35,199 nt of DNA from a virus: positions 1-35,199 of IMG/VR virus record IMGVR_UViG_3300039008_000097. One strand, 5' to 3'. The position numbers and the translations under genes are program-made. Shown here one piece after another: positions 11,291 through 20,715 of the stretch. Below the pieces are notes generated by a model, which was not told where the DNA came from, did no database searches, and worked only from the letters and a program-made list of their open reading frames with translations. Position 1 is the stretch's first letter; each line of letters begins with the position of its first letter.

Positions 11291-11845
11291 ATGGCACTAA
11301 CTTACCATGAAATTCGGCAGGCAAGGATTGAGGCTGAACAGACTATTGCCAGAGCGGATGAAGCCGCCAGACAGGCAGCCAGATTGATACAGGGAAGGCT
11401 TCGCGCCTCTGGCATCTGGAATACGCGATTTTCAGGAAAGGTTGCCGGGGCCTGCAGCAATGGCTATATCAGGATCGGAATACTTGGCCAGAGAATAAAA
11501 GCTCATCGCTTGGCTTTTCTCTATATGACTAGCGGAATCCCTGCTGTAGTTGACCACAGGAACCATATCACTACAGATAACTCCTGGGAAAATATCAGGC
11601 CATCAAACCACTCTTTAAACAACGCCAACACAGTACTCAGAGCTGACAATACAACAGGGTTTAAGGGTGTGAGCTGGAAGAAAGAAAGGCGCGCTTTTGT
11701 CACACAGATAGCTGAAGGCGGGAGAAAAAAACATCTTGGATATTTTAATTGCTTTATAGAGGCTGCAACGGAATACGATAAAGCAGCTATAAGCCTCTTT
11801 GGCTCACACGTCCTAACCAATGAATCACTTGGTCTTCTGCCATGA
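11291..11845 (+). CDS. HNH endonuclease with C-terminal AP2 DNA-binding domain (free-standing homing-type endonuclease)
   Basis: AHRLAFLY...VDHRNHITTDNSWENIRPSNHSLN is HNH_3-like. It is followed by TGFKGVSW...F...I...GK..HLGYF....EAA.AYD.AA, which is AP2-like. Confidence 0.85.
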   Translation: MALTYHEIRQARIEAEQTIARADEAARQAARLIQGRLRASGIWNTRFSGKVAGACSNGYIRIGILGQRIKAHRLAFLYMTSGIPAVVDHRNHITTDNSWENIRPSNHSLNNANTVLRADNTTGFKGVSWKKERRAFVTQIAEGGRKKHLGYFNCFIEAATEYDKAAISLFGSHVLTNESLGLLP

Positions 11846-13027: not shown

Positions 13028-13201
13028 ATGATACACCGCATAAAGCACGGAATCCGCATAGGCGGCCCATATCAGTTAAGTGATGGAAATTACATATTTT
13101 CCAATGCAGACACACGAAAAGGCAAAAGAATACTGAAAAAACGCGGATATGAGCCTCACAATACATTATTTGGCCCATGTTTTAGGAAGAAAATGAAATG
13201 A
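13028..13201 (+). CDS. Hypothetical 57-aa basic protein (not in ORF track)
   Basis: ATG 13028 with a strong GGAGAAGG RBS. Its TGA overlaps the next ATG. Confidence 0.5.
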   Translation: MIHRIKHGIRIGGPYQLSDGNYIFSNADTRKGKRILKKRGYEPHNTLFGPCFRKKMK

Positions 13202-13329
13202 TGTGTCCTGTATGCTGCTCCCCCACAAAAGTCCTGAATGTCATCAAGAAAAAGACGCGACCTGACAGAAACATTGACGAAGACAAAGTGATTAGGCACA
13301 GAAAGTGCGTCAATAAAATATGTGGGTAG
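13198..13329 (+). pseudogene. 5' fragment of a Zn-ribbon protein gene truncated by the IS insertion
   Basis: MMCPVCCSPTKVLNVIKKKTRPDRNIDEDKVIRHRKCVNKICG is followed by a TAG (13327-13329) formed at the IS junction. The CxxC ... CxxxxC pattern suggests a Zn ribbon. Confidence 0.7.
13321..13328. repeat. Target-site duplication, left copy (TGTGGGTA)
   Basis: The 8 bp abutting the left IR match 7 of the 8 bp abutting the right IR (TGTGGGGA at 16180-16187). Confidence 0.6.
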
Positions 13330-13350
13330 GTAGTGGGTCAGTTTGAAATT
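13329..13350. repeat. Terminal inverted repeat next to the transposase 3' end: GGTAGTGGGTCAGTTTGAAATT
   Basis: Exact reverse complement of 16158-16179. Complementarity extends one more base to 13328/16180. Confidence 0.9.
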
Positions 13351-14252
13351 TTCTTATACGGCCCTCTTTTCTTGGATGGAGGAGCCATGGCGTCTATCAG
13401 ACCCACAATGAATTCTAGATCATAGACACTATCAGCAATTCCGGCTTCCATAGCAGGTGTTACCCTCAGCGACTTATGGATACGGCAGAAATTGTAGTAC
13501 ATGTAATGCAGTGATATGGCGTGCATGTGATTTTCAATCTTCTTGCTGAATCCATTGGTCAAGCGTGTAAATCGCCGCATAGACATTCTCATGGTGAGAT
13601 TCTGGCGCTCAACGTAGCTGGTGCTAATGTGCTTGGGATTCGGATCGCCTTTCTTGACTTGTCTCTCGGCCCTTACAAATTCGGATGGTGAATAACGGCG
13701 ATTTGTCTCTTTATCCGTGTAAGGGCCGTATATCTTTATGAGTCGACCATAATCGATGTTGTTGCCAAAACTGTCGTCTATGGCGCTCAGGTAGGGTTGG
13801 TGGCCATCGGTCGACAGTTGGACGCGATTAGCCAGACGAGAGGCCAAATCTTCAATAAACAGCTCAGCGTGCTCTAGGGTGCGATTTCCGACGTGCCAGC
13901 AGGGAACCAGCTTGGTATCAGAGTCAATGGCCACCCAGGTCCAAATATCGCCAGCCTGGTCTTTCTTCTCTTCCGGTACGTTCTTTTGCTTGGCGTACAC
14001 AAACGACCAGATTTCGTCGCATTGCACCCGCTGACAGCTCAGATTGCGCAACACACGGTCCTGATAGCCCAAACAGGCCTCGCCAGCGTCTCTGAGCAAC
14101 TTGCAGACCGTATTCCGGCTGACATCCGCCATACGAGCGGCAGCCCTCAGAGAATTACCCTCAACAAGCATGTGCAGTATCTGGGCGCGTTGGTTGGTAC
14201 TCAATTTATTCATACTGAACATTATGCATGACCGGCCAAGAAATGCAAGCAT
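13338..14252 (-). CDS. IS1-family-like DDE transposase (single ORF)
   Basis: N-terminal HTH (NSLRAAARMADVSRNTVCKLL). The C-terminal block SYVERQNLTMRMSMRRFTRLTNGFSKKIENHMHAISLHYMYYNFCRIHKSL parallels the IS1 InsB motif (IERxNLxxRQ...R.T..FSK....H). The true start may be the Met at residue 11 or 14. Confidence 0.85.
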   Translation of the reverse strand: MLAFLGRSCIMFSMNKLSTNQRAQILHMLVEGNSLRAAARMADVSRNTVCKLLRDAGEACLGYQDRVLRNLSCQRVQCDEIWSFVYAKQKNVPEEKKDQAGDIWTWVAIDSDTKLVPCWHVGNRTLEHAELFIEDLASRLANRVQLSTDGHQPYLSAIDDSFGNNIDYGRLIKIYGPYTDKETNRRYSPSEFVRAERQVKKGDPNPKHISTSYVERQNLTMRMSMRRFTRLTNGFSKKIENHMHAISLHYMYYNFCRIHKSLRVTPAMEAGIADSVYDLEFIVGLIDAMAPPSKKRGPYKKISN

Positions 14253-14311
14253 ATAAGTTAAAATTCATGCTTGCATTTTGATCCTTGCGCCAATAATATG
14301 CAAGGATCAAA
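14241..14311. promoter_or_regulatory. Two abutting perfect 12-bp inverted repeats in the transposase / P63C divergent region
   Basis: Repeat A is AAATGCAAGCAT (14241-14252) with ATGCTTGCATTT (14267-14278). Repeat B is TTTGATCCTTGC (14277-14288) with GCAAGGATCAAA (14300-14311). Both share a TGCAAG/CTTGCA core. A further CTTGCA overlaps the P63C start codon at 14325-14332. Confidence 0.6.
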
Positions 14312-14329
14312 AAAAAGAGGGTTGCTTGC

Positions 14330-15292
14330 ATGGGTCACAAAGATGAAAGTAAGTCTATTGGCGGAAAAGCCAGGGCGGCTGCACTATCACCAAAGAAACG
14401 AAAAGAGATTGCAGCCAAGGCAGCAATAGCGCGATGGGGTGCGAAATCAACGCATAAAGGAAATTTCAAAGAAGAATTTGGTATAGATGTTGACTGCTAT
14501 GTTTTGCAGGATGAATCCAAAACAGCCGTTATTAGCCAAACTGGGATGGCTAGAGCGCTTGGATTGAGTGCAAGGGGAAACGCATTTCCCCGGTTTGCAA
14601 ATAGCAATGTAATGCAAAAATACATCGGCGCCGAACTTCGCGAAAAAATCAACAATCCACTTAAATTTCAATGGGTTAGCCCCGGCGCCGAACAGCCCCC
14701 TCTTTCGGTGCATGGATATGAGGTGACGCTTCTTATTGATGTATGTAAAGCAATCCTAGCTGCGGCAGATGCCGGTGATCTACTTGCCCGGCAAAAACCC
14801 ATGGCGAAACAAGCTCATATCATCACCAACGCGTCAGCAAAACACGGAATCACTCAATTAGTTTACGATTTAGCTGGTTTCGACACTATTGCAGAGGAAA
14901 GGATTGCAGCGTTTAAGCTTTTCGTAATAAAAGAAGCCAGAGAATATGAAAAGGAGTTTCCCGACGAACTTTATAAACAATGGTATAGGTTATATGAATT
15001 GCAGCAGCCTCAGCGCGGTAGACCTTGGGCATTCAAAACCTTAACACTTGACCACGTCTACTGGCCATTAGCAAAAAGTAATGGGAAGATTTTGGAACTT
15101 ACAAGGCTACAAAAAAGCTCCAGCGAAAAACGCCATCAAAAGCTCCATCAATTTTTATCCGACATCGGAGTAAAGGCGTTGAGGCAGCACCTTGGGCAAT
15201 TGTTAGGTATTGCCCAAGTCTCTAGTAATCGAGATGAATACGAAAGAAATATCAATAAAGTTTTTGGTGAGCAGCACGAGTTAGACCTTTAA
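14330..15292 (+). CDS. P63C-domain protein with N-terminal GGKARAxxLxPxxRKEIAxKAAxARW motif (IS passenger)
   Basis: EFPDELYKQWYRLYEL...RP.....T.DHVY.PL....ILEL......S..KRHQKLHQFLSD.G...L.QHLG.L matches my memory of the P63C domain (PF10546). AGAGGG RBS. Confidence 0.7.
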   Translation: MGHKDESKSIGGKARAAALSPKKRKEIAAKAAIARWGAKSTHKGNFKEEFGIDVDCYVLQDESKTAVISQTGMARALGLSARGNAFPRFANSNVMQKYIGAELREKINNPLKFQWVSPGAEQPPLSVHGYEVTLLIDVCKAILAAADAGDLLARQKPMAKQAHIITNASAKHGITQLVYDLAGFDTIAEERIAAFKLFVIKEAREYEKEFPDELYKQWYRLYELQQPQRGRPWAFKTLTLDHVYWPLAKSNGKILELTRLQKSSSEKRHQKLHQFLSDIGVKALRQHLGQLLGIAQVSSNRDEYERNINKVFGEQHELDL

Positions 15293-15531
15293 TTCTTTTT
15301 CCACCTTGCTTTGGCGGCTTTGCGGGCAATCTCCTTCCGTTCTTCTGGCGTGAGACTCGCCGCTCGCGCCTTTCCTCCTTTTAACCCTCCTTTCCTTCCC
15401 AAAGCAACAGCATTTGGGTCTTTTCGATCTTTCTCTTTGTTTTGCTCGACTTCAGCTTCGTCGCCAATTGATAAATCAACAACATGCTTGGCGAGCTGGT
15501 TAGCGTCTGTAGGTCTTTTGGGGGTTTTCAT
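15289..15531 (-). CDS. 80-aa basic protein with C-terminal GGKARAASLTPEERKEIARKAAKARW motif (IS passenger)
   Basis: ORF track. Convergent with the P63C gene, with a 4-nt overlap of the 3' ends. 20 of 26 motif residues are identical to residues 11-36 of the P63C protein. Confidence 0.7.
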   Translation of the reverse strand: MKTPKRPTDANQLAKHVVDLSIGDEAEVEQNKEKDRKDPNAVALGRKGGLKGGKARAASLTPEERKEIARKAAKARWKKN

Positions 15532-15613
15532 TCCATCATGTTACTTAAGTGGTCAAGCATTTGGCAATATTATTTGTTATTCTATACGTGCATAGAAAAC
15601 GTGAGGAACCCTC

Positions 15614-16111
15614 GTGGTCGGGTTTCTCTTTGAATACAAGACCAGATTAACGGCAAAGGCTGATCACTTTTGCTTAGGAAATAGAAGAGACGCTTTCCTC
15701 ACGTCAGCGTATGCACTGCCCGGCACCATTTTAATATGGTGCCACATTTGTATGAATGATAGAGGACGAATAATGGAAAAAGAAGAACTGATTTTAAACC
15801 AAAGCCCCATGCTGTGGGGGCTTAGCGCTGATACTATATTTTATGGATGTCTGGTTTTGATTGGAGTTTTGTTGATTTTGTTTATTCTGGCGTGTATTGG
15901 AAACTATGTCCTTGCCACAGAAAATATACGGCGAAAGCTGTTAACTACGCAAGTGTTTTTAGAGGCAACAGAGATTCAATTGAGAGACAAAAAAGAAATC
16001 ATAAGCTCCCTCAGTGAAAAGATTAGGCAGATAGAAGAAAAACATGATCAGCAAGAAGAGTATTATGACAAGGAAATAGAGAAGCTAACTAATAATGCAT
16101 ACAATTTCTAA
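15614..16111 (+). CDS. Membrane protein with C-terminal coiled coil (IS passenger); alternative start ATG 15773 giving 112 aa
   Basis: Hydrophobic segment IFYGCLVLIGVLLILFILACIGNYVLA is followed by a heptad-like charged region (EIQLRDKKEIISSLSEKIRQIEEKHDQQEEYYDKEIEKL). GTG 15614 has a GAGGAA RBS and ATG 15773 has a GAGGA RBS. The part from 15773 on is visibly AT-rich. Confidence 0.65.
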   Translation: MVGFLFEYKTRLTAKADHFCLGNRRDAFLTSAYALPGTILIWCHICMNDRGRIMEKEELILNQSPMLWGLSADTIFYGCLVLIGVLLILFILACIGNYVLATENIRRKLLTTQVFLEATEIQLRDKKEIISSLSEKIRQIEEKHDQQEEYYDKEIEKLTNNAYNF

Positions 16112-16157
16112 ATAATCTCCCAAGGATGGGGTTTTAATTAGGGTGCGCAATCTTTTT

Positions 16158-16179
16158 AATTTCAAACTGACCCACTACC
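16158..16179. repeat. Terminal inverted repeat (cargo side): AATTTCAAACTGACCCACTACC
   Basis: Exact reverse complement of 13329-13350. Confidence 0.9.
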
Positions 16180-16187
16180 TGTGGGGA
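16180..16187. repeat. Target-site duplication, right copy (TGTGGGGA)
   Basis: See the left copy; 7 of 8 bases are identical. Confidence 0.6.
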
Positions 16188-16392
16188 TCGAGGGGCGTTC
16201 CCCTCACCTCGAACTACTGAATACTGCCCAGGTCTATCCAAGTTGGAATATATCGCTACACAGGCAATGTGCTCGCTATTATCTGCAGATATTGATGGGA
16301 AATATGACAACCACCGAGGAACCAGCCTTTACAAGAAGGCTAGAAATCACGCATTAAATTTATTGGAAGAATTAGATGAAGCTAGAAACTGA
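16186..16392 (+). pseudogene. 3' fragment of the IS-disrupted Zn-ribbon gene
   Basis: The frame DRGAFPSPRTTEYCPGLSKLEYIATQAMCSLLSADIDGKYDNHRGTSLYKKARNHALNLLEELDEARN is open and in phase with 13198..13326 once the IS and one TSD copy are removed. It has no start or RBS of its own. Confidence 0.65.
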
Positions 16393-16477
16393 GCATTACG
16401 AAATACTATCACTGATAATGTGCGCTTTGATTATTGTTGCGACCATTGTGCCCATAGTTTTATGGTGGAGGTTTTAA
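16376..16477 (+). CDS. Possible 33-aa membrane peptide at the end of the right arm (not in ORF track)
   Basis: ATG 16376 with a GGAAGA RBS. Translation MKLETEHYEILSLIMCALIIVATIVPIVLWWRF. Its stop overlaps the stop of the convergent 16474..16695 gene. Confidence 0.3.
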   Translation: MKLETEHYEILSLIMCALIIVATIVPIVLWWRF

Positions 16478-16695
16478 CGCTTACTTTTACGACGACTCAG
16501 TATGGTTTGAACATTAACTACAATGATAGATATTGAAACAACCATACCTAAAACAATAATAAGCGCTTGCGCCTCTGGAGATTCTGTTATCCATCTAACC
16601 CATGCGGGAATCGTTGCGGTTGTCGCGCCGAACGTCATTGCGCCCTTCCCGCTTGCAATTTCCTGGACTTGATTCATTGCTTGAGCCTTGTCCAC
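16474..16695 (-). CDS. Small membrane protein, 73 aa, last gene of the lysis region (holin/antiholin or spanin-like; function uncertain)
   Basis: ORF track. C-terminal TM segment ALIIVLGMVVSISIIVVNV followed by a basic tail. Confidence 0.6.
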   Translation of the reverse strand: MDKAQAMNQVQEIASGKGAMTFGATTATIPAWVRWITESPEAQALIIVLGMVVSISIIVVNVQTILSRRKSKR

Positions 16696-16697
16696 GC

Positions 16698-17147
16698 CTA
16701 AAAATTCCCGTAATGAGACTTAAAGCTGAAGTTAAAAAAGTTAGGAGTACCAATATTTTTGCGGTCACTATCAATACCTCCATTTTTTTTCCTTATTGTG
16801 AGTATCGCCACTATTGTCAAAGCATAGAGAACATTAAAAGCAATATCATATGCCAATGGCGGGAAATAAAGCTCATATATCACCCAACCCGCTATATTTA
16901 ATAGCAATGACATAAAAGTCACAACGCAAAGGATTTTAACCAGCTTGTTAATAGAAACAAGGCGAGAAAGCCCCCATAAAACCCCCAAATCAAATAATCC
17001 GGCAATATGATAATGCCAACTATCTATATAAGGCGCAAAGAAATGGAAAATTATTCCAAGGATAACAAAAATAGCCAGAGGCCAAAAATCCAAATTTTTA
17101 GATTTAACGGCTATCCACGATATAATTGCCAGCAATAGCAAAGTCAT
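16698..17147 (-). CDS. AT-rich polytopic membrane protein, 149 aa (moron-like)
   Basis: ORF track. About four hydrophobic segments. Base composition is clearly more AT-rich than the flanking phage genes by eye. Confidence 0.65.
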   Translation of the reverse strand: MTLLLLAIISWIAVKSKNLDFWPLAIFVILGIIFHFFAPYIDSWHYHIAGLFDLGVLWGLSRLVSINKLVKILCVVTFMSLLLNIAGWVIYELYFPPLAYDIAFNVLYALTIVAILTIRKKNGGIDSDRKNIGTPNFFNFSFKSHYGNF

Positions 17148-17207
17148 TTACTTGCCTTTTGGTTTGGTTTTTGGTTTCCGCTTCTTTTTACCGTTTCCAC
17201 CTGCCAC
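17148..17207 (-). CDS. Possible 19-aa Lys-rich micro-ORF (MAGGNGKKKRKPKTKPKGK)
   Basis: GTG 17207 lies 6 nt after GAAGGAGA. Its TAA abuts the ATG of 16698..17147 (TAAATG). Confidence 0.3.
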   Translation of the reverse strand: MAGGNGKKKRKPKTKPKGK

Positions 17208-17218
17208 AATAATCTCCT

Positions 17219-17683
17219 TCAATTTCTGGTATTTGTTGACATAATATTAACAGACGATGGTCGGCTTGCGAACCACCAAGAGACAGCGGTCGCAGTTAAG
17301 CTGATAATGTTGAGGGTGATTCCACGGTAGAGTTCCGCAGCTTCAGCAGGTGGCAGGCTCGATATGCCGCCAGTGATTTTTTCCAACTCAATCAAGATTC
17401 GGTAAGTCATGTACAGCAAAGCACCTGTTATGATTGGACGCACTGCAGATTTAATGGCATCTCCGAACTTGCTTTTAGTAACCTGCGAAACTTCAAATGC
17501 ACGAGCTTCGATGGCGGTAGTGTCGGCACTGGACTGGGCCTGAATACGGTTAAGCTCAAACTCTTGGTCAGCCCGTCTCAGCTTGCGATCCTCGCGCCGA
17601 TTCAACCAACCAAACAAACCACCAGTAATGGCACCAACGCCAGAACTTGACATGATAGTCATCAACCCATCAAGCCATTCCAT
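17219..17683 (-). CDS. Three-TM holin-like membrane protein, 154 aa
   Basis: Three hydrophobic segments with a charged coiled region between the first two. Lies downstream of the endolysin gene. Confidence 0.6.
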   Translation of the reverse strand: MEWLDGLMTIMSSSGVGAITGGLFGWLNRREDRKLRRADQEFELNRIQAQSSADTTAIEARAFEVSQVTKSKFGDAIKSAVRPIITGALLYMTYRILIELEKITGGISSLPPAEAAELYRGITLNIISLTATAVSWWFASRPSSVNIMSTNTRN

Positions 17684-17904
17684 TACTCGTCACCCCCGTG
17701 TCTACGGTGAGAATGATCGCCAAACGCTTCGCCGGCAATAAATGCTGCCACAAGGCCAACCAGTGAAGGAACCACAACCATGGCCAAAGCCTGCTCAATT
17801 GGGCCTATATCTCCCGGCAGGATCAGCCACAGGATGACGGCACTTATCAGTGCCATCGTCCAATAGGCGATACGGCGGCGTGTTTTACGTAGTGGTTTGG
17901 TCAT
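17683..17904 (-). CDS. Two-TM small membrane protein, 73 aa (holin/antiholin-like)
   Basis: ORF track. TM segments AYWTMALISAVILWLIL and MVVVPSLVGLVAAFIAG. Adjacent to the endolysin gene. Confidence 0.6.
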   Translation of the reverse strand: MTKPLRKTRRRIAYWTMALISAVILWLILPGDIGPIEQALAMVVVPSLVGLVAAFIAGEAFGDHSHRRHGGDE

Positions 17905-17905
17905 A

Positions 17906-18289
17906 CTAATAAACCCACATTGTTAGATGACCCTCTGGAAGTTCAGGCCGGTAACCAAGGTGGACAAAAGTCTTTGCTACACCAATAGCATTGCAACCAG
18001 CCTCAATCGCCGCCTGAACGACGTTGCCACGGGTTGAGCCTGACACACCAACATCACATCCTTGTTGCTTCTGGTGGTCAGCAGGGGTCGTCCTGTGCAG
18101 CTCATCAGAGTGGTTCGGACAACGACCTCCGGAAGTTACTGGCAATGGGTGGCCAACGATATTTCTCACCTTTTGCACCCGATTCAAATGCTCCTGGGAA
18201 ACACTGCGTTGATCGCAATCAGGATGACCACAGGTACACAGCAGTTTCGGATCGGTGTCGGGATGAAAATTCTGAGTATGTATAATCAT
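17906..18289 (-). CDS. Peptidase M15-like endolysin (VanY / L-Ala-D-Glu peptidase type)
   Basis: PLPVTSGGRCPNHSDE...ADH...CDVGV....FVHLGYRP resembles the SGYRC..HN...H..G.A.D...HvD pattern of M15 peptidases. Located in the lysis position. Confidence 0.65.
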   Translation of the reverse strand: MIIHTQNFHPDTDPKLLCTCGHPDCDQRSVSQEHLNRVQKVRNIVGHPLPVTSGGRCPNHSDELHRTTPADHQKQQGCDVGVSGSTRGNVVQAAIEAGCNAIGVAKTFVHLGYRPELPEGHLTMWVY

Positions 18290-20715
18290 GTACTCTCAAT
18301 ACCAAGGTAGCTCAACCGACATCTATCTGCTGATCTTCCAGCATTTGAGTTCTTTGCCCTAAACTGAAGTTGGACGATCTTTTGGTTATCCCTGTGAAGA
18401 GTGGCAATTTGACCAACCGTTAAATCTAAGGTTTGATCGGAGGTTGATAGCAGTGAAATACTATTAGTTCCGCCATCAACAAATACAGCCTCCAGCTCTG
18501 CGGTTAAGGTTCCTACCGGGGAACCGTTGAAATCAAACTCAATTGACATGGCATAAAAATAATCGAAGGATTGCCTTCTTGGATCAAATACTAGGTCTGA
18601 CCCGAAAGTATCAGCAGCAGAGTCTGGGTTCGCATCTTGCACAATTTTTCTATTTATGGGGCATCTGGTAGCACCAGCATTCGTGGAAAACCCTTTATAA
18701 GCATCAACAAACCCTGATGTTATAGTGGATTTCTCTTTAAGCTGACCACCAAATCCAGCAGAAATCTCTAAACCAACAGGAGCAGTTGCACCAGCTATCA
18801 GCTCAGGAGGACTTATCTTGGTTCCAAATGCACTGCTTTCTCCAGCTCCTGCTCCAAATTTAACTGCAGAAGCAGCAGGCTCACCTGGCAATCCACTAAA
18901 AACACCACCGATTACCACGCAGTCGTCAAAATCAACAGTGCCCACACCGTTAAATAAAAGAGGGTTTCGACATCCGGATCCATAACCGTAGGTTGCACCA
19001 CTAACAGTAACCTGGGCCTCTAAATCTAGAGTCAGCTGAGTTGCACTATCCCTACTTACAACATATGCCTCAAGCGGTGATCCACTTGGGTTTGCCCCCT
19101 CAACAATAAAGTGCTTCCCAACTATAGATGTTGGAAAGTTTGCTGATGCAGAGGAAAACACAGGTGATCCAGCCGAAATCTGCCCATCTGATCCAACAGT
19201 AAAGCCATCATCATTCGTGCTAATTACCTGAACATCGACATCAATATTATCCGATCCCGTAGAACCAAGATAACCATAAAGAGATGGGTATCCGGTATTA
19301 ATTGCACCGGCACCCGATGTTCCGGGATTTAATATATCGCCTCTAACCGACCCATTTCTCCCCATGGTAACAACGGCGCCCTGCAATGCATCTCGGCTAA
19401 TTAGGTGATGGTCAAAGCCCTCTATTCTAGAACCGCCATTAAATTCTTGGTGAACCTCCCTCGAATTCCTAAAACCATAAGTTTCAGTTTTTATGTTTCT
19501 AAAAACTTCGTTTACCGCACTTCCTGCAAATGACACGCCAATACCATTTCCAGCCCCAAGCTTTAAATCATTTATATATCTAGTTCTCGCAATAGCCCTG
19601 TAATTTTCCCTTACAGGCATAGGGGATGTTGAGCCGTCAACCTCTGGAAAGCTAAACTCTATGCCACTTCCTGCGCAATTCTCCGCATCAACATCAATGT
19701 CTACATTTCCGCAATTTCTAAAAAGATAGCCAGACTCTCCAGTGTCTTTAACTGAACCCCTTACCTTTATATCTGTACATCTTAGAAAGAAAACAGCAGA
19801 ATTTGCTGGGCCTGATATGCCAGTCCTTCCGGCAACAGTATTGTATTCGTTCACCACGAGCCCGGCAGCCCCGATCTCTCTAGAGCCTTCCCCTTTTAAA
19901 TCAAAATGACCACTTATAGTAATTCCAATTTTACCATCAGCACTAAACATACCCCTGTTGGCGATGGGGATTGGATTTTCAACTACCCGAACCGCCTCAT
20001 TGACAATATTAATATCAATATTGTTACGTGAAATAGTAACTGACTTCCAAGTCGGAACAGCCTCAACTATATTTGCCTCACTGACGCGCACATGATTGAT
20101 CAATGAGCTATAGCTATCTGTAGAATCAGAACCGGAAATAGCCCCGAATTGCGCTGAATTTGCCGCCCCATCTATTTGAATTAAGGCAACGCTATTGTTC
20201 GACAGCAAATGATCCCCGCGCCCATCAACCGCTTGGTTTGCAAAAATAATATATTTGGCACCTCCTCCATCTCCAGACGAATAGTACCCTTTTGTTGTCG
20301 CAACATTGCCAACATCAAGCGTGGTATCGGCCACCATATCTGCAACGGAATCGTAAACGGCACCACTACGATCTGTTACATCCTCAATAGTGATAACCGC
20401 ACTAGCCGCCCTTCTAGGGTTGTAATAAATCTGGTTCCCGTTCCGGTCGAGAACCTTAATGGAATAATCGCCATCCGTTGATAACTGAACCGGCGATCCA
20501 TTTAGATCGGGCACACCACCAGACCCAGTTCGGATAGGCTGCGCAATAACTACAGAAGAACCATTCTCCTGCAAAGCATTTACCTGCTTCTGGTTTGAGG
20601 GTAGCTCAGGGTCTGTATCTGGATCACCAACGTAAATAGACCCATTGAATATGGGTTGCCCTTTATTGGTGAAGGGGTAGTATCTGTTTTCCAGTTCAAC
20701 TAATAGTTCTGCCAT
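18286..20715 (-). CDS. Tailspike: P22-type head-binding N-terminal domain plus beta-helix body
   Basis: NGSIYVGDPDTDPELPSNQKQVNALQENGSSVVIAQPIRTGSGGVPDLNGSPVQL..YSIKVLDRNGNQIYY parallels P22 gp9 [68 protein letters not shown]. The remainder is Gly/Asn/Ser-rich and typical of a beta-helix. Confidence 0.85.
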   Translation of the reverse strand: MAELLVELENRYYPFTNKGQPIFNGSIYVGDPDTDPELPSNQKQVNALQENGSSVVIAQPIRTGSGGVPDLNGSPVQLSTDGDYSIKVLDRNGNQIYYNPRRAASAVITIEDVTDRSGAVYDSVADMVADTTLDVGNVATTKGYYSSGDGGGAKYIIFANQAVDGRGDHLLSNNSVALIQIDGAANSAQFGAISGSDSTDSYSSLINHVRVSEANIVEAVPTWKSVTISRNNIDINIVNEAVRVVENPIPIANRGMFSADGKIGITISGHFDLKGEGSREIGAAGLVVNEYNTVAGRTGISGPANSAVFFLRCTDIKVRGSVKDTGESGYLFRNCGNVDIDVDAENCAGSGIEFSFPEVDGSTSPMPVRENYRAIARTRYINDLKLGAGNGIGVSFAGSAVNEVFRNIKTETYGFRNSREVHQEFNGGSRIEGFDHHLISRDALQGAVVTMGRNGSVRGDILNPGTSGAGAINTGYPSLYGYLGSTGSDNIDVDVQVISTNDDGFTVGSDGQISAGSPVFSSASANFPTSIVGKHFIVEGANPSGSPLEAYVVSRDSATQLTLDLEAQVTVSGATYGYGSGCRNPLLFNGVGTVDFDDCVVIGGVFSGLPGEPAASAVKFGAGAGESSAFGTKISPPELIAGATAPVGLEISAGFGGQLKEKSTITSGFVDAYKGFSTNAGATRCPINRKIVQDANPDSAADTFGSDLVFDPRRQSFDYFYAMSIEFDFNGSPVGTLTAELEAVFVDGGTNSISLLSTSDQTLDLTVGQIATLHRDNQKIVQLQFRAKNSNAGRSADRCRLSYLGIEST

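What the first reader, a model, noticed from the sequence alone, without database searches (positions are those of the whole stretch)
14253..16157. Three-gene passenger cassette (P63C-domain protein, small basic partner, membrane/coiled-coil protein) as a candidate undescribed accessory system
None of the three cargo ORFs is needed for transposition. The 320-aa protein carries a P63C domain, a phage-associated domain with no established biochemical function as far as I know. The 80-aa basic protein is convergent with it and overlaps its 3' end. The third gene is AT-rich and encodes a protein with a transmembrane segment and a long coiled coil. The cassette has its own divergent control regions with palindromes and differs in composition from the phage backbone. 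A small nucleic-acid-binding-type pair plus a membrane effector on a mobile element inside a phage resembles superinfection-exclusion, abortive-infection or addiction modules. I see no recognisable enzymatic domain, so any function is hypothesis only.
Basis: inference. Interest (0 to 1): 0.8.

Follow-up and report, generated by a model that had tools for sequence, protein, structure and literature searches.

The report
Defence-carrying IS1-like transposon inside a phage
The three genes are real but are not one system: one is the transposon's own small regulator-like protein, one is a self-regulated P63C cargo gene that probably excludes phages, and one is an orphan membrane protein. All three ride on a widespread IS1-like transposon family that carries anti-phage defence genes.

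Summary
The three ORFs lie in a 2,851-bp element (13329-16179) with 22-nt terminal inverted repeats and an 8-bp target duplication. The element interrupts a small gene of a P22-like phage.

The reading as one three-gene system is not supported.
- The 80-aa protein (p80) is a constant companion of this IS1-like transposase whatever the cargo. It co-diverges with the transposase, and the two genes' promoters share a palindrome.
- The P63C gene is one of many alternative cargoes in a defined slot. Other cargoes include DarTG, dGTPase, SoFic, RosmerTA/PD-Lambda-2-like genes, PD-Lambda-5, HEC-04, dCTP-deaminase-like genes, MazF and RES-Xre.
- The membrane/coiled-coil gene has no homologue anywhere.

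P63C travels with its own promoter and a conserved four-site GCAAGCA array. This holds in transposons, phages and isolated chromosomal copies. Phage homologues lacking the N-terminal motif lack the array and sit directly downstream of the prophage repressor.

Most likely P63C is a self-regulated, DNA-binding phage-exclusion or abortive-infection gene, and p80 is the transposon's repressor. The anatomy is well supported. The functions are inferred.

The parts
13321..13328 (.). Left copy of the 8-bp target-site duplication (TGTGGGTA)
   Evidence: Matches 16180-16187 at 7 of 8 positions. An 8-bp perfect duplication flanks about 80 related elements.
13329..13350 (+). Left terminal inverted repeat, GGTAGTGGGTCAGTTTGAAATT
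   Evidence: Perfect inverted repeat with 16158-16179. The core GGTAGTGnnTCAGTTTGAA is conserved in over 100 elements. No chance matches in shuffles.
13338..14213 (-). IS1-family-like DDE transposase in a single ORF. It is 291 aa from the third ATG; the ORF is open to 14252.
   Evidence: Pfam DDE_Tnp_IS1 3.7e-7 (31 bits, cut-off 24.1). NCBIfam IS1 5.5e-19 but below cut-off. Gene callers give 291-294 aa. RefSeq names homologues 'IS1 family transposase'.
14224..14243 (.). Palindrome of the type ATGCTTGA-N4-TCAAGCAT, degenerate here, just upstream of the transposase start
   Evidence: The same palindrome overlaps the -35 of both the transposase and p80 promoters across elements, independent of cargo. 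A strict pattern hits 52 of 165 transposase-upstream and 29 of 125 p80-upstream regions, against 0-1 in shuffles. L165 is a clean example.
14243..14252 (.). P63C operator-like site S1 (ATGCAAGCAT)
   Evidence: First of four sites at about -90, -65, -35 and -10 from the ATG. The array is conserved upstream of P63C genes only.
14267..14276 (.). Site S2 (ATGCTTGCAT), containing the putative -35 TTGCAT of the P63C promoter (14271-14276)
   Evidence: Read from the sequence. The geometry is conserved in other elements. The promoter assignment is inference.
14294..14299 (+). Putative -10 (TAATAT) of the P63C promoter, 17 nt after the -35
   Evidence: Read from the sequence. The same arrangement appears in L004 and L015. 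Not picked up by the consensus scan.
14298..14307 (.). Site S3 (ATGCAAGGAT, one mismatch)
14322..14331 (.). Site S4 (TTGCTTGCAT), overlapping the P63C start codon
14330..15292 (+). P63C-family protein, 320 aa. N-terminal helix-hairpin motif GGxARAxxLxxxxRxxIAxKAAxxRW, then a central alpha/beta domain (about residues 38-150), then a helical C-terminal P63C domain.
   Evidence: Pfam and PHROG matches. Over 2,397 close homologues. 1,828 clusters at 50% identity. AlphaFold model pLDDT 69.8. Weak fold matches to Mx8 p63 and Bro-N or 'repressor domain' proteins.
15289..15531 (-). p80: small basic helical protein. Conserved N-terminal PKRPRDxNQLAKxIVDLxTGE and a C-terminal copy of the same helix-hairpin motif. 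It is a constant partner of the transposase.
   Evidence: Over 7,900 homologues, some named 'histone H1' by NCBI. Present in nearly all bounded elements. Co-diverges with the transposase, Mantel r=0.64. Model pLDDT 69.9, all helical, no PDB match.
15538..15567 (-). p80 promoter (TTGCCA-18-TAACAT) overlapping the palindrome-like site 15541-15560
   Evidence: Promoter scan. Equivalent sequences lie upstream of p80 in viral loci.
15532..15772 (+). Spacer between p80 and the third gene. It folds unusually well as RNA.
   Evidence: z = -3.66; 0 of 200 shuffles fold as well. No Rfam match. No similar DNA in 260 other loci.
15773..16111 (+). Orphan gene: N-terminal transmembrane segment plus a charged helical (coiled-coil-like) tail, 112 aa, 36% GC
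   Evidence: Its only matches are its own copies in the same phage. Weak PHROG hit to an Rz-like spanin, E=0.006.
16118..16131 (+). Terminator-like hairpin after the orphan gene
   Evidence: consensus scan only.
16158..16179 (-). Right terminal inverted repeat
16180..16187 (.). Right copy of the target-site duplication (TGTGGGGA)
   Evidence: Read from the sequence.
13198..13328 (+). 5' part of the interrupted phage gene. It continues at 16188-16392.
   Evidence: Removing the element and one duplication copy restores an in-frame 111-aa CxxC...CxxxxC protein. No Pfam family.

Best explanation
The stretch is the non-transposase part of a 2.85-kb IS1-family-like transposon that has jumped into a P22-like phage. 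It holds three unrelated things.

(1) p80 belongs to the transposon backbone. It is a small helical DNA-binding-type protein. It most likely represses its own promoter and the transposase promoter by binding the palindrome ATGCTTGA-N4-TCAAGCAT that overlaps both -35 boxes. This role is like that of InsA in IS1.

(2) The P63C gene is cargo in the element's main cargo slot, but it is a self-contained module. It has its own promoter and four GCAAGCA sites, which its N-terminal helix-hairpin (the motif it shares with p80) most likely binds to autoregulate. Its central Bro-N/KilA-N-like domain and helical P63C domain most likely act on incoming phage DNA. This would give exclusion or abortive infection, in the manner of the unrelated prophage protein BstA.

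(3) The membrane/coiled-coil gene is a one-off extra cargo of unknown role.

Shown: the element's boundaries, the constancy of p80, the interchangeability of cargo, the defence nature of much other cargo, the co-travel of P63C with its site array, and the positions of phage homologues.
Inferred: which protein binds which site, and the defence function itself.
For: Mobile unit.
- 35 bounded elements in genomes of many phyla, and 69 more in metagenome and viral contigs. About 80 have perfect 8-bp duplications.
- Four identical 2,515-bp copies occur in one Kaistiaceae genome.

p80 as backbone.
- It is present with every cargo type.
- Transposase-p80 co-divergence gives r=0.64, against r=0.31 for transposase-P63C.
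- The shared palindrome lies at both promoters.

Cargo slot. 149 cargo ORFs from 81 elements were scanned.
- PADLOC matches: PD-Lambda-2_B x9, RmrA x4, RmrT x2, SoFic x2, PD-Lambda-5 A and B, DarT/DarG, dGTPase (1.5e-119), HEC-04.
- Pfam matches: PemK x4, SocA_Panacea x4, dCTP-deaminase-like x2, HipA-like.

P63C module.
- The GCAAGCA/TGCTTGC array sits at fixed positions in 40 of 76 loci as a perfect 2+2 set, and 60 of 79 loci have at least two exact 8-mers (expected about 0.007).
- The array is present with or without the transposase, and in phages SPN9CC, 611R6 and Bups phi1. It is absent upstream of other cargo.
- Homologues without the N-terminal motif (Midgardsormr38, SI8, Javan484) have no array. 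Homologues with a diverged motif have different repeats: 933W has ACGTGCA x3 and E192a has GTTAGATAT x2.

Phage context.
- P63C genes lie directly downstream of the prophage repressor in four separate lineages.
- Others lie in the sieA/mnt slot, at a prophage end after the tail fibres, and in the nin region of 933W.
- The slot downstream of the repressor is where bstA and rexAB lie (PMC8585504).
Against: - There is no experimental datum for any P63C protein. Only three papers in the library mention the domain.
- P63C matches no PADLOC model.
- Homology to BstA is not demonstrable (hhalign probability 0.1-5%).
- The structural model is only moderate (pLDDT 69.8). It has no PDB neighbour, and the Bro-N-type matches in BFVD are weak (E 1e-2 to 1e-1).
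- Guilt by association is indirect. Many cargo ORFs have no assignable function, and some are plain regulators or TA genes.
- The site array is equally well explained as ordinary autorepression, which says nothing about defence.
- The transposase's own N-terminal HTH could bind the promoter palindrome instead of p80.
Confidence: 0.55

Rival explanations
1. P63C, p80 and the membrane protein form one three-part accessory system: a nucleic-acid-binding pair that controls or senses, plus a membrane effector.
For: The genes are adjacent inside one mobile element. P63C and p80 share a motif. One P22-like phage has an unrelated transmembrane plus coiled-coil ORF next to its P63C gene.
Against: The membrane protein has no homologue at all. 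It lies in a different cargo position, separated from p80 by the p80 promoter. p80 goes with any cargo. P63C occurs without either neighbour. The phage ORF shows no sequence similarity to the window's membrane protein.
Confidence: 0.04
2. P63C is a transcription factor of the antirepressor, Bro or Roi kind. It reprograms phage or host gene expression (for example prophage induction or the lysis-lysogeny decision) rather than excluding other phages.
For: Weak fold similarity to Bro-N and 'repressor domain' phage proteins. Sequence-specific operator-like sites accompany the gene. In 933W it lies beside roi, and in 611R6 beside mnt-arc-ant.
Against: An antirepressor co-transcribed with the prophage repressor, as in four phage lineages, would be self-defeating. 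In the transposons the gene shares its slot with defence and toxin genes, not with regulators of phage development. There is no Pfam Bro-N, ANT or KilA hit.
Confidence: 0.2
3. P63C and p80 are a toxin-antitoxin or addiction pair. p80 neutralises P63C through the shared motif and so stabilises the transposon.
For: The pair is convergent with a 4-nt overlap in many elements. They share a motif. Intact P63C genes persist beside decayed transposase remnants, although this sample was selected by P63C similarity.
Against: p80 is equally present with Fic, dGTPase, RosmerTA-like and other cargo. P63C is stably carried without p80 in phages and chromosomes. P63C and p80 co-diverge only weakly (r=0.32).
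Confidence: 0.08
4. P63C and/or p80 are accessory transposition proteins, for target choice or transpososome assembly, rather than a regulator and cargo.
For: p80 is as constant as the transposase and is encoded next to one terminal repeat. Elements are frequent in viral contigs.
Against: For P63C: most elements of the family transpose without it, as shown by perfect duplications with other cargo. For p80: the target duplications show no sequence preference. The conserved sites near p80 and the transposase overlap promoters rather than lying in the terminal repeats.
Confidence: 0.1

Closest known systems
IS1 family insertion sequences, in particular single-ORF members and IS with passenger genes ('transporter IS')
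   Same: IS1-type DDE transposase signature. Terminal repeats beginning GGT. 8-bp target duplication. A small DNA-binding-type protein is encoded alongside the transposase, as InsA is in IS1 (own knowledge of IS1). Passenger genes lie inside the repeats.
   Different: There is a single transposase ORF with no insA-insB' frameshift. p80 has no zinc finger and no detectable similarity to InsA. A defined cargo slot lies between p80 and the transposase and is filled with defence and toxin genes. Whether ISfinder already lists this group could not be checked here.
BstA / aba abortive-infection system of prophage BTP1 (PMC8585504)
   Same: A protein of about 310-320 aa in two domains, with a KilA-N/Bro-N-like N-terminal part. 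Phage copies lie directly downstream of the prophage repressor. A short repeated DNA element straddles the gene's 5' end and co-varies with the protein variant.
   Different: No demonstrable sequence homology. The P63C array has four inverted 8-10-bp sites over about 90 bp and overlaps a promoter, whereas aba is 63 bp with two CCCGCC direct repeats. Neither the Abi phenotype nor the self-immunity role has been tested for P63C.
Defence-cargo transposons and cassettes, such as Tn7-like elements and integron cassettes carrying defence systems (own knowledge)
   Same: A mobile backbone with a hot spot where interchangeable defence systems are found.
   Different: This element is much smaller (1.9-5.3 kb), usually with one or two cargo genes. 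It has an IS1-like DDE enzyme and no target-selection machinery. It is often found inside viral contigs.
Phage Bro-N / KilA-N / antirepressor-type modular proteins, including Mx8 p63, the founder of the P63C domain
   Same: The P63C domain itself. There is a BFVD fold match to Mx8 p63 and to Bro-N proteins.
   Different: No Pfam Bro-N, KilA-N or ANT match. There is an added N-terminal helix-hairpin motif with a cognate site array.

Membership tests
IS1 family (transposase/element) | IS1-type DDE transposase domain | tested here: met
   Pfam DDE_Tnp_IS1 31 bits against a cut-off of 24.1. The NCBIfam IS1 equivalog scores only 68.9 bits against a cut-off of 100, so this is a distant member.
IS1 family (transposase/element) | Terminal inverted repeats and an 8-9-bp target duplication | tested here: met
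   22-23-nt perfect repeats. 8-bp duplications in about 80 related elements.
IS1 family (transposase/element) | insA and insB' ORFs joined by a programmed -1 frameshift | tested here: not met
   One uninterrupted 291-304-aa ORF. This fits the single-ORF subgroup known from ISfinder (own knowledge, not checked).
IS with passenger genes (transporter IS) | Non-transposition genes inside the repeats that move with the element | tested here: met
   Identical multi-copy elements and perfect duplications enclosing the cargo.
Pfam P63C (PF10546) | Match above the gathering score | tested here: met
   43.2 bits against a cut-off of 26.1, residues 197-283.
BstA abortive-infection family | Sequence homology to BstA | tested here: not met
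   No PADLOC hit at E<=0.1. hhalign probability 0.1% against a single BstA sequence and 5% (E=0.007) against a profile of 8 BstA sequences, over the N-domain only.
BstA abortive-infection family | Gene downstream of the prophage repressor | tested here: inconclusive
   Met for phage homologues (SPN9CC, SI8, Midgardsormr38, Javan484). Not met for the window copy, which sits in a transposon.
BstA abortive-infection family | Cognate cis DNA element giving self-immunity; abortive-infection phenotype | not testable with these tools
   A co-varying site array exists, but its function is unknown.
Type II toxin-antitoxin pair (P63C + p80) | The two genes are specifically and reciprocally linked | tested here: not met
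   p80 occurs with many other cargoes, and P63C occurs without p80.
Bro-N / KilA-N DNA-binding domain proteins | Recognisable Bro-N or KilA-N domain | tested here: inconclusive
   No Pfam hit. Foldseek BFVD hits to Bro-N proteins are weak, at E 0.01-0.3.
Rz-like i-spanin (third gene) | N-terminal transmembrane segment plus periplasmic coiled coil, a partner lipoprotein o-spanin, and a place in a lysis cassette | tested here: not met
   The architecture fits, and there is a weak PHROG hit at E=0.006. However, the embedded ORF 15847-16017 shows no lipobox by eye. The gene lies inside the transposon, and the phage has its own lysis genes at 16474-18289.

The most novel reading that the evidence does not exclude
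The p80-transposase elements are an undescribed, globally abundant family of small IS1-like 'defence shuttles' that move single defence genes between bacteria and phages. The shared GGxARA...ARW helix-hairpin is a new sequence-specific DNA-binding module, used by p80 to control the transposon and by P63C to recognise its own locus. P63C is a new abortive-infection family whose four-site array serves, like aba for BstA, as a cis self-immunity mark for the replicon that carries it.
Probability: 0.25. Interest if true: 0.8.

Novelty: new variant of a known kind. Interest (0 to 1): 0.65.

Why it matters
If correct, three things follow.
- It gives a concrete, testable function to the P63C domain. 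That family has about 1,800 clusters at 50% identity, occupies classic lysogeny-expressed slots in Salmonella, E. coli (Stx), Erwinia, Streptococcus and Gordonia phages, and has never been studied.
- It defines a very common small transposon family as a vehicle for anti-phage genes. The family has thousands of p80 homologues, occurs in many phyla, and is found in at least 108 viral contigs. Its cargo slot could be mined for new defence systems in the same way as defence islands or integron cassettes.
- It identifies a short helix-hairpin motif with matched DNA sites in two unrelated protein contexts. This offers an easy entry point for biochemistry.

Tried and rejected
- Near-identical DNA in the phage collection: none.
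- PDB sequence search with the P63C profile: no hit even at E<=10.
- Foldseek against PDB: nothing significant for P63C or for p80.
- PADLOC on the window's four proteins: nothing.
- NCBIfam: no match for P63C, p80 or the third gene.
- BstA homology, tested twice: not demonstrable.
- Search for an uninterrupted 'empty site' of the phage gene in viral contigs: none.
- Homologues of the membrane protein: none beyond its own phage. Its DNA and the upstream spacer match none of 260 other loci.
- Spanin reading of the third gene: rejected (see the membership test).
- Rfam on 13200-16400: nothing.
- Literature: no hits for ISMhu11. Only three incidental mentions of 'P63C domain'. Nothing found on IS1-like elements with defence cargo.
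- Mnt-like gene next to P63C in phage 611R6, considered as a p80 homologue: rejected, because it is an Arc/RHH protein.
- Target-sequence preference of the transposon: none seen in 29 duplications.
- A cargo-less minimal element with intact p80: not found. The smallest bounded element (L235, 1,323 bp) has a degraded p80.
Full report
**What is at the coordinates**

- A 320-aa P63C-domain protein lies at 14330-15292 on the + strand.
- An 80-aa basic protein lies at 15289-15531 on the - strand, overlapping the P63C stop by 4 nt.
- A third ORF is best read from the ATG at 15773 to 16111. This gives 112 aa, with an AGAGGA ribosome-binding site 6 nt upstream.

Pfam confirms the P63C domain (E=6.4e-11). 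PHROGs gives a full-length match to phrog_2384, a family of unknown function (2.5e-89). The C-terminus of the 80-aa protein matches the N-terminal 33 residues of that same PHROG.

The third protein has one very hydrophobic segment (residues 25-43) and a tail that is 39% charged. Its gene is 36% GC against 47% for the window.

To the left lies an IS1-like transposase (13338-14213/14252, - strand).

The whole block is bounded by perfect inverted repeats. Their core, GGTAGTGGGTCAGTTTGAA, occurs nowhere else in the window and never in shuffles. With ends at 13329 and 16179 the element is 2,851 bp. It is flanked by TGTGGGTA and TGTGGGGA, an 8-bp duplication with one mismatch.

Removing the element in silico restores an in-frame 111-aa CxxC...CxxxxC protein. 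This gene follows NinG at the end of the rightward early operon of a phage whose tailspike has a P22-type head-binding domain. The same insertion is seen in three assemblies.

**The element is one of a large family that moves as a unit**

A search of one genome per species with a P63C alignment returned 80 loci. They came from Proteobacteria, Acidobacteriota, Verrucomicrobiota, Myxococcota, Chloroflexi, Firmicutes and others.
- In 54 of these loci an IS1-like transposase (42-70% identical) lies immediately upstream and divergent, exactly as in the window.
- In 37 of them an 80-aa homologue lies convergent just downstream.
- The terminal repeat GGTAGTGnnTCAGTTTGAA is conserved.
- 35 elements are bounded by both repeats, nearly all with perfect 8-bp duplications. 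Sizes range from 2.3 to 4.7 kb.
- One Kaistiaceae genome carries four identical 2,515-bp copies. Two of them have swapped flanks, the signature of an inversion between copies.

The unit made of transposase, P63C gene and 80-aa gene therefore transposes as a whole.

**The reciprocal searches change the picture**

Anchoring on the transposase in metagenomes gave 80 loci with 55-70% identity.
- The window-type P63C is almost never next to the transposase. It appears in one locus only (L089, 24 residues at the contig edge).
- Seven more loci have a distant (about 30% identical) P63C.
- The 80-aa protein (p80 from here on) is present in about 47 of the 60 loci with enough sequence.

Anchoring on p80 in viral contigs found at least 108 contigs. 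Among the 80 loci kept, 55 have the transposase, most have the terminal repeat 60-100 nt upstream of the p80 start, and only 3 have P63C.

A further 69 bounded elements were obtained, of 1.3-5.3 kb. Of these, 51 have perfect duplications.

Pairwise divergence of transposase and p80 is well correlated (Mantel r=0.64). That of transposase and P63C is weakly correlated (r=0.31; 28 elements).

p80 is therefore backbone and P63C is exchangeable cargo. The third gene has no homologue in 5.8 billion proteins apart from its own copies. Its DNA, together with the 240-nt spacer upstream of it, matches none of the other loci. It lies in a second, rarely used cargo position, between the p80 promoter and the right repeat.

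**What else rides in the cargo positions**

I scanned 149 distinct cargo ORFs from 81 distinct bounded elements.

PADLOC recognises:
- PD-Lambda-2_B (9 ORFs)
- RmrA (4) and RmrT (2) of RosmerTA
- SoFic (2; 1e-114)
- PD-Lambda-5 A and B
- DarT and DarG (2.7e-62, 2.4e-120)
- dGTPase (1.5e-119)
- HEC-04 (5.5e-54)
- a type II methyltransferase, and others

Pfam adds:
- PemK/MazF (4)
- SocA/Panacea (4)
- dCTP-deaminase-like proteins (2)
- Fic, a HipA-like kinase, STAND and AAA_21 ATPases, Abi_2, DUF3800 and DUF6731

A RefSeq plasmid copy carries RES-Xre.

P63C is the most frequent single cargo in this sample (32 ORFs), but the genome subset was selected by P63C similarity. RefSeq annotates these loci only as 'IS1 family transposase' plus hypothetical proteins.

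**The P63C gene is a self-contained module**

Upstream of P63C there are four copies of ATGCAAGCAT or its complement ATGCTTGCAT.
- In the window they lie at 14243-14252, 14267-14276, 14298-14307 (one mismatch) and 14322-14331. The last overlaps the start codon.
- S2 contains a good -35 (TTGCAT). A TAATAT -10 follows 17 nt later and abuts S3.
- Across 76 distinct genome loci, GCAAGCA peaks at -90/-85 and -35/-30, and TGCTTGC peaks at -70/-65 and -15/-10.
- 40 loci have the perfect 2+2 set.
- 60 of 79 loci have at least two exact 8-mers in 232 nt, where about 0.007 are expected.
- The array is found whether or not a transposase is present.
- It is found in Salmonella phage SPN9CC (33% protein identity), Escherichia phage vB_EcoP-611R6 (47%) and Burkholderia phage Bups phi1 (54%), and partly in Pseudomonas phage Lodos and Gordonia phage Petra.
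- It is absent upstream of every other cargo type in the same transposon family.

The array tracks the N-terminal motif GGxARAxxLxxxxRxxIAxKAAxxRW.
- Homologues that lack the motif (Erwinia Midgardsormr38, Salmonella SI8, Streptococcus Javan484) have no array. They start a few tens of bases after the prophage repressor gene.
- Homologues with a diverged motif have different repeats: ACGTGCA x3 in 933W and GTTAGATAT x2 in Burkholderia E192a.

The simplest reading is that the motif is a DNA-reading helix-hairpin that autoregulates the gene. In both AlphaFold models the motif is two helices.

**What p80 probably does**

p80 carries the same motif at its C-terminus, after a strongly conserved N-terminal segment PKRPRDxNQLAKxIVDLxTGE.

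The p80 promoter and the transposase promoter have the same build in many elements. A palindrome ATGCTTGA-N4-TCAAGCAT overlaps the -35, and a -10 lies a few bases before the ATG.
- A strict pattern for the palindrome hits 52 of 165 transposase-upstream and 29 of 125 p80-upstream regions, against 0-1 in shuffles.
- The palindrome is independent of cargo.
- Its half-site (TCAAGCAT) differs by one base from the P63C site (GCAAGCAT).

I infer that p80 is the element's repressor, acting on itself and on the transposase. This role is comparable with that of InsA in IS1 (own knowledge). It does not show that the two proteins are partners. The transposase's own HTH is an alternative binder, so this step remains untested.

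**What P63C probably does**

No biochemical function can be read from the sequence.
- The profile finds nothing in the PDB.
- The model (pLDDT 69.8) has no PDB neighbour.
- In BFVD it matches Mx8 p63 and, weakly, Bro-N and 'repressor domain' phage proteins.

The functional inference rests on context.
- In the transposons the gene occupies the slot used by single-gene defence systems.
- In phages its homologues lie directly downstream of the prophage repressor in four independent lineages: SPN9CC-type with 24 Salmonella records, SI8-type, Midgardsormr38, and Javan484 between repressor and integrase.
- Other homologues lie in the sieA/mnt slot of a P22-like phage, at the tail-fibre end of a Caballeronia prophage, near the integrase of a Gordonia phage, and in the nin region of 933W beside roi.
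- The position after the repressor is that of rexAB and of bstA.

BstA is a 307-aa abortive-infection protein with a KilA-N-like N-domain. A short DNA element (aba) spans its gene start and gives the carrier phage self-immunity, with cognate protein-element pairs (PMC8585504). P63C resembles this in size, two-domain layout, position, and possession of a co-varying cis element at the 5' end. Homology is not demonstrable: there is no PADLOC hit, and hhalign probability is at most 5% with a collinear match over the N-domain only.

I therefore propose that P63C works like BstA but is not a member of that family. I put about even odds on a defence or exclusion role. The main alternative is a Bro/antirepressor-type regulator.

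**The third gene**

It is an orphan with an i-spanin-like architecture and a weak PHROG hit (E=0.006). It has no partner lipoprotein and no place in the phage's lysis cassette.

An unrelated transmembrane plus coiled-coil ORF sits beside P63C in phage 611R6. That is a single case and may be chance.

The 240-nt leader folds unusually well (z=-3.66), but it has no Rfam match and no relatives for covariation analysis.

Its function is open. Superinfection exclusion at the membrane is a guess.

**Verdict**

The idea of a single three-gene system is not. What is there is a member of a very common IS1-like transposon family, apparently undescribed in the searchable literature. The family has a constant small regulator-like protein and a cargo slot rich in anti-phage genes. 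Here it carries an autoregulated P63C module and one orphan gene, and it is inserted in a phage gene. ISfinder could not be consulted, so prior naming of the IS group cannot be excluded.

Noticed in passing
window 13198-13328 and 16188-16392: The transposon interrupts a 111-aa zinc-ribbon-like phage gene, the last gene of the rightward early operon after NinG. That is the position where late-gene regulators often lie, so the phage may be crippled. The restored protein matches no Pfam family.
   Followed up: partly
window 14276-14288 / 14300-14312: A perfect 13-nt inverted repeat (TTTTGATCCTTGC / GCAAGGATCAAAA) brackets the putative -10 of the P63C promoter. It accounts for the one mismatch in site S3. 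It was not seen in the other elements inspected.
   Followed up: no
window 15532-15772: The spacer upstream of the orphan membrane gene folds much better than shuffles (z=-3.66). It includes the long-range pairing CGTGAGGAA/TTCCTCACG and an 8-bp hairpin at 15722-15743. There is no Rfam match and there are no homologues.
   Followed up: partly
L040, L041, L042, L078 (Kaistiaceae MAG CAXXUZ01): Four identical 2,515-bp copies of the element occur in one genome. Copies L040 and L078 have exchanged their target duplications (GCAATTTC/GATGGTTC), which indicates an inversion by recombination between the two copies.
   Followed up: partly
L085:2994-3398 (-), Escherichia phage vB_EcoP-611R6: A 134-aa ORF with one transmembrane segment and a coiled-coil-like tail lies divergent from the phage's P63C gene, in the sieA position. 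Its architecture is the same as that of the window's orphan gene, but there is no sequence similarity.
   Followed up: partly
L235:5945-7267: This is the smallest bounded element (1,323 bp, perfect duplication). Its p80 reading frame is degraded, and the region contains what looks like a tRNA-like fragment (…GGTTCGAATCCCGTCCTGCGCA).
   Followed up: no
L265 (Acidiphilium multivorum plasmid NZ_CP041717) and L264 (Hoeflea plasmid NZ_CP011481): RefSeq copies of the element family are annotated only as 'IS1 family transposase' plus hypothetical proteins. One has a RES-domain toxin with an MbcA/ParS/Xre antitoxin downstream of the transposase. The other has an XRE-type (HTH-M78-like) gene pair between p80 and the transposase.
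   Followed up: partly
window 11291-11845: An HNH endonuclease fused to an AP2 DNA-binding domain (homing-endonuclease type) lies in the phage early region.
   Followed up: no
window 16474-20715 (- strand): A phage lysis and tail block: small membrane proteins, a Peptidase_M15_3 endolysin (17906-18289), and an 809-aa tailspike with a P22-type head-binding domain. This marks the backbone as a P22-like podovirus.
   Followed up: partly
L003-L082: P63C proteins are 55-65% identical across very distant phyla, from Proteobacteria to Firmicutes and Abditibacteria. This fits recent horizontal spread by the transposon. Several loci keep an intact P63C gene beside decayed transposase remnants (L018, L025, L050, L054).
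   Followed up: partly
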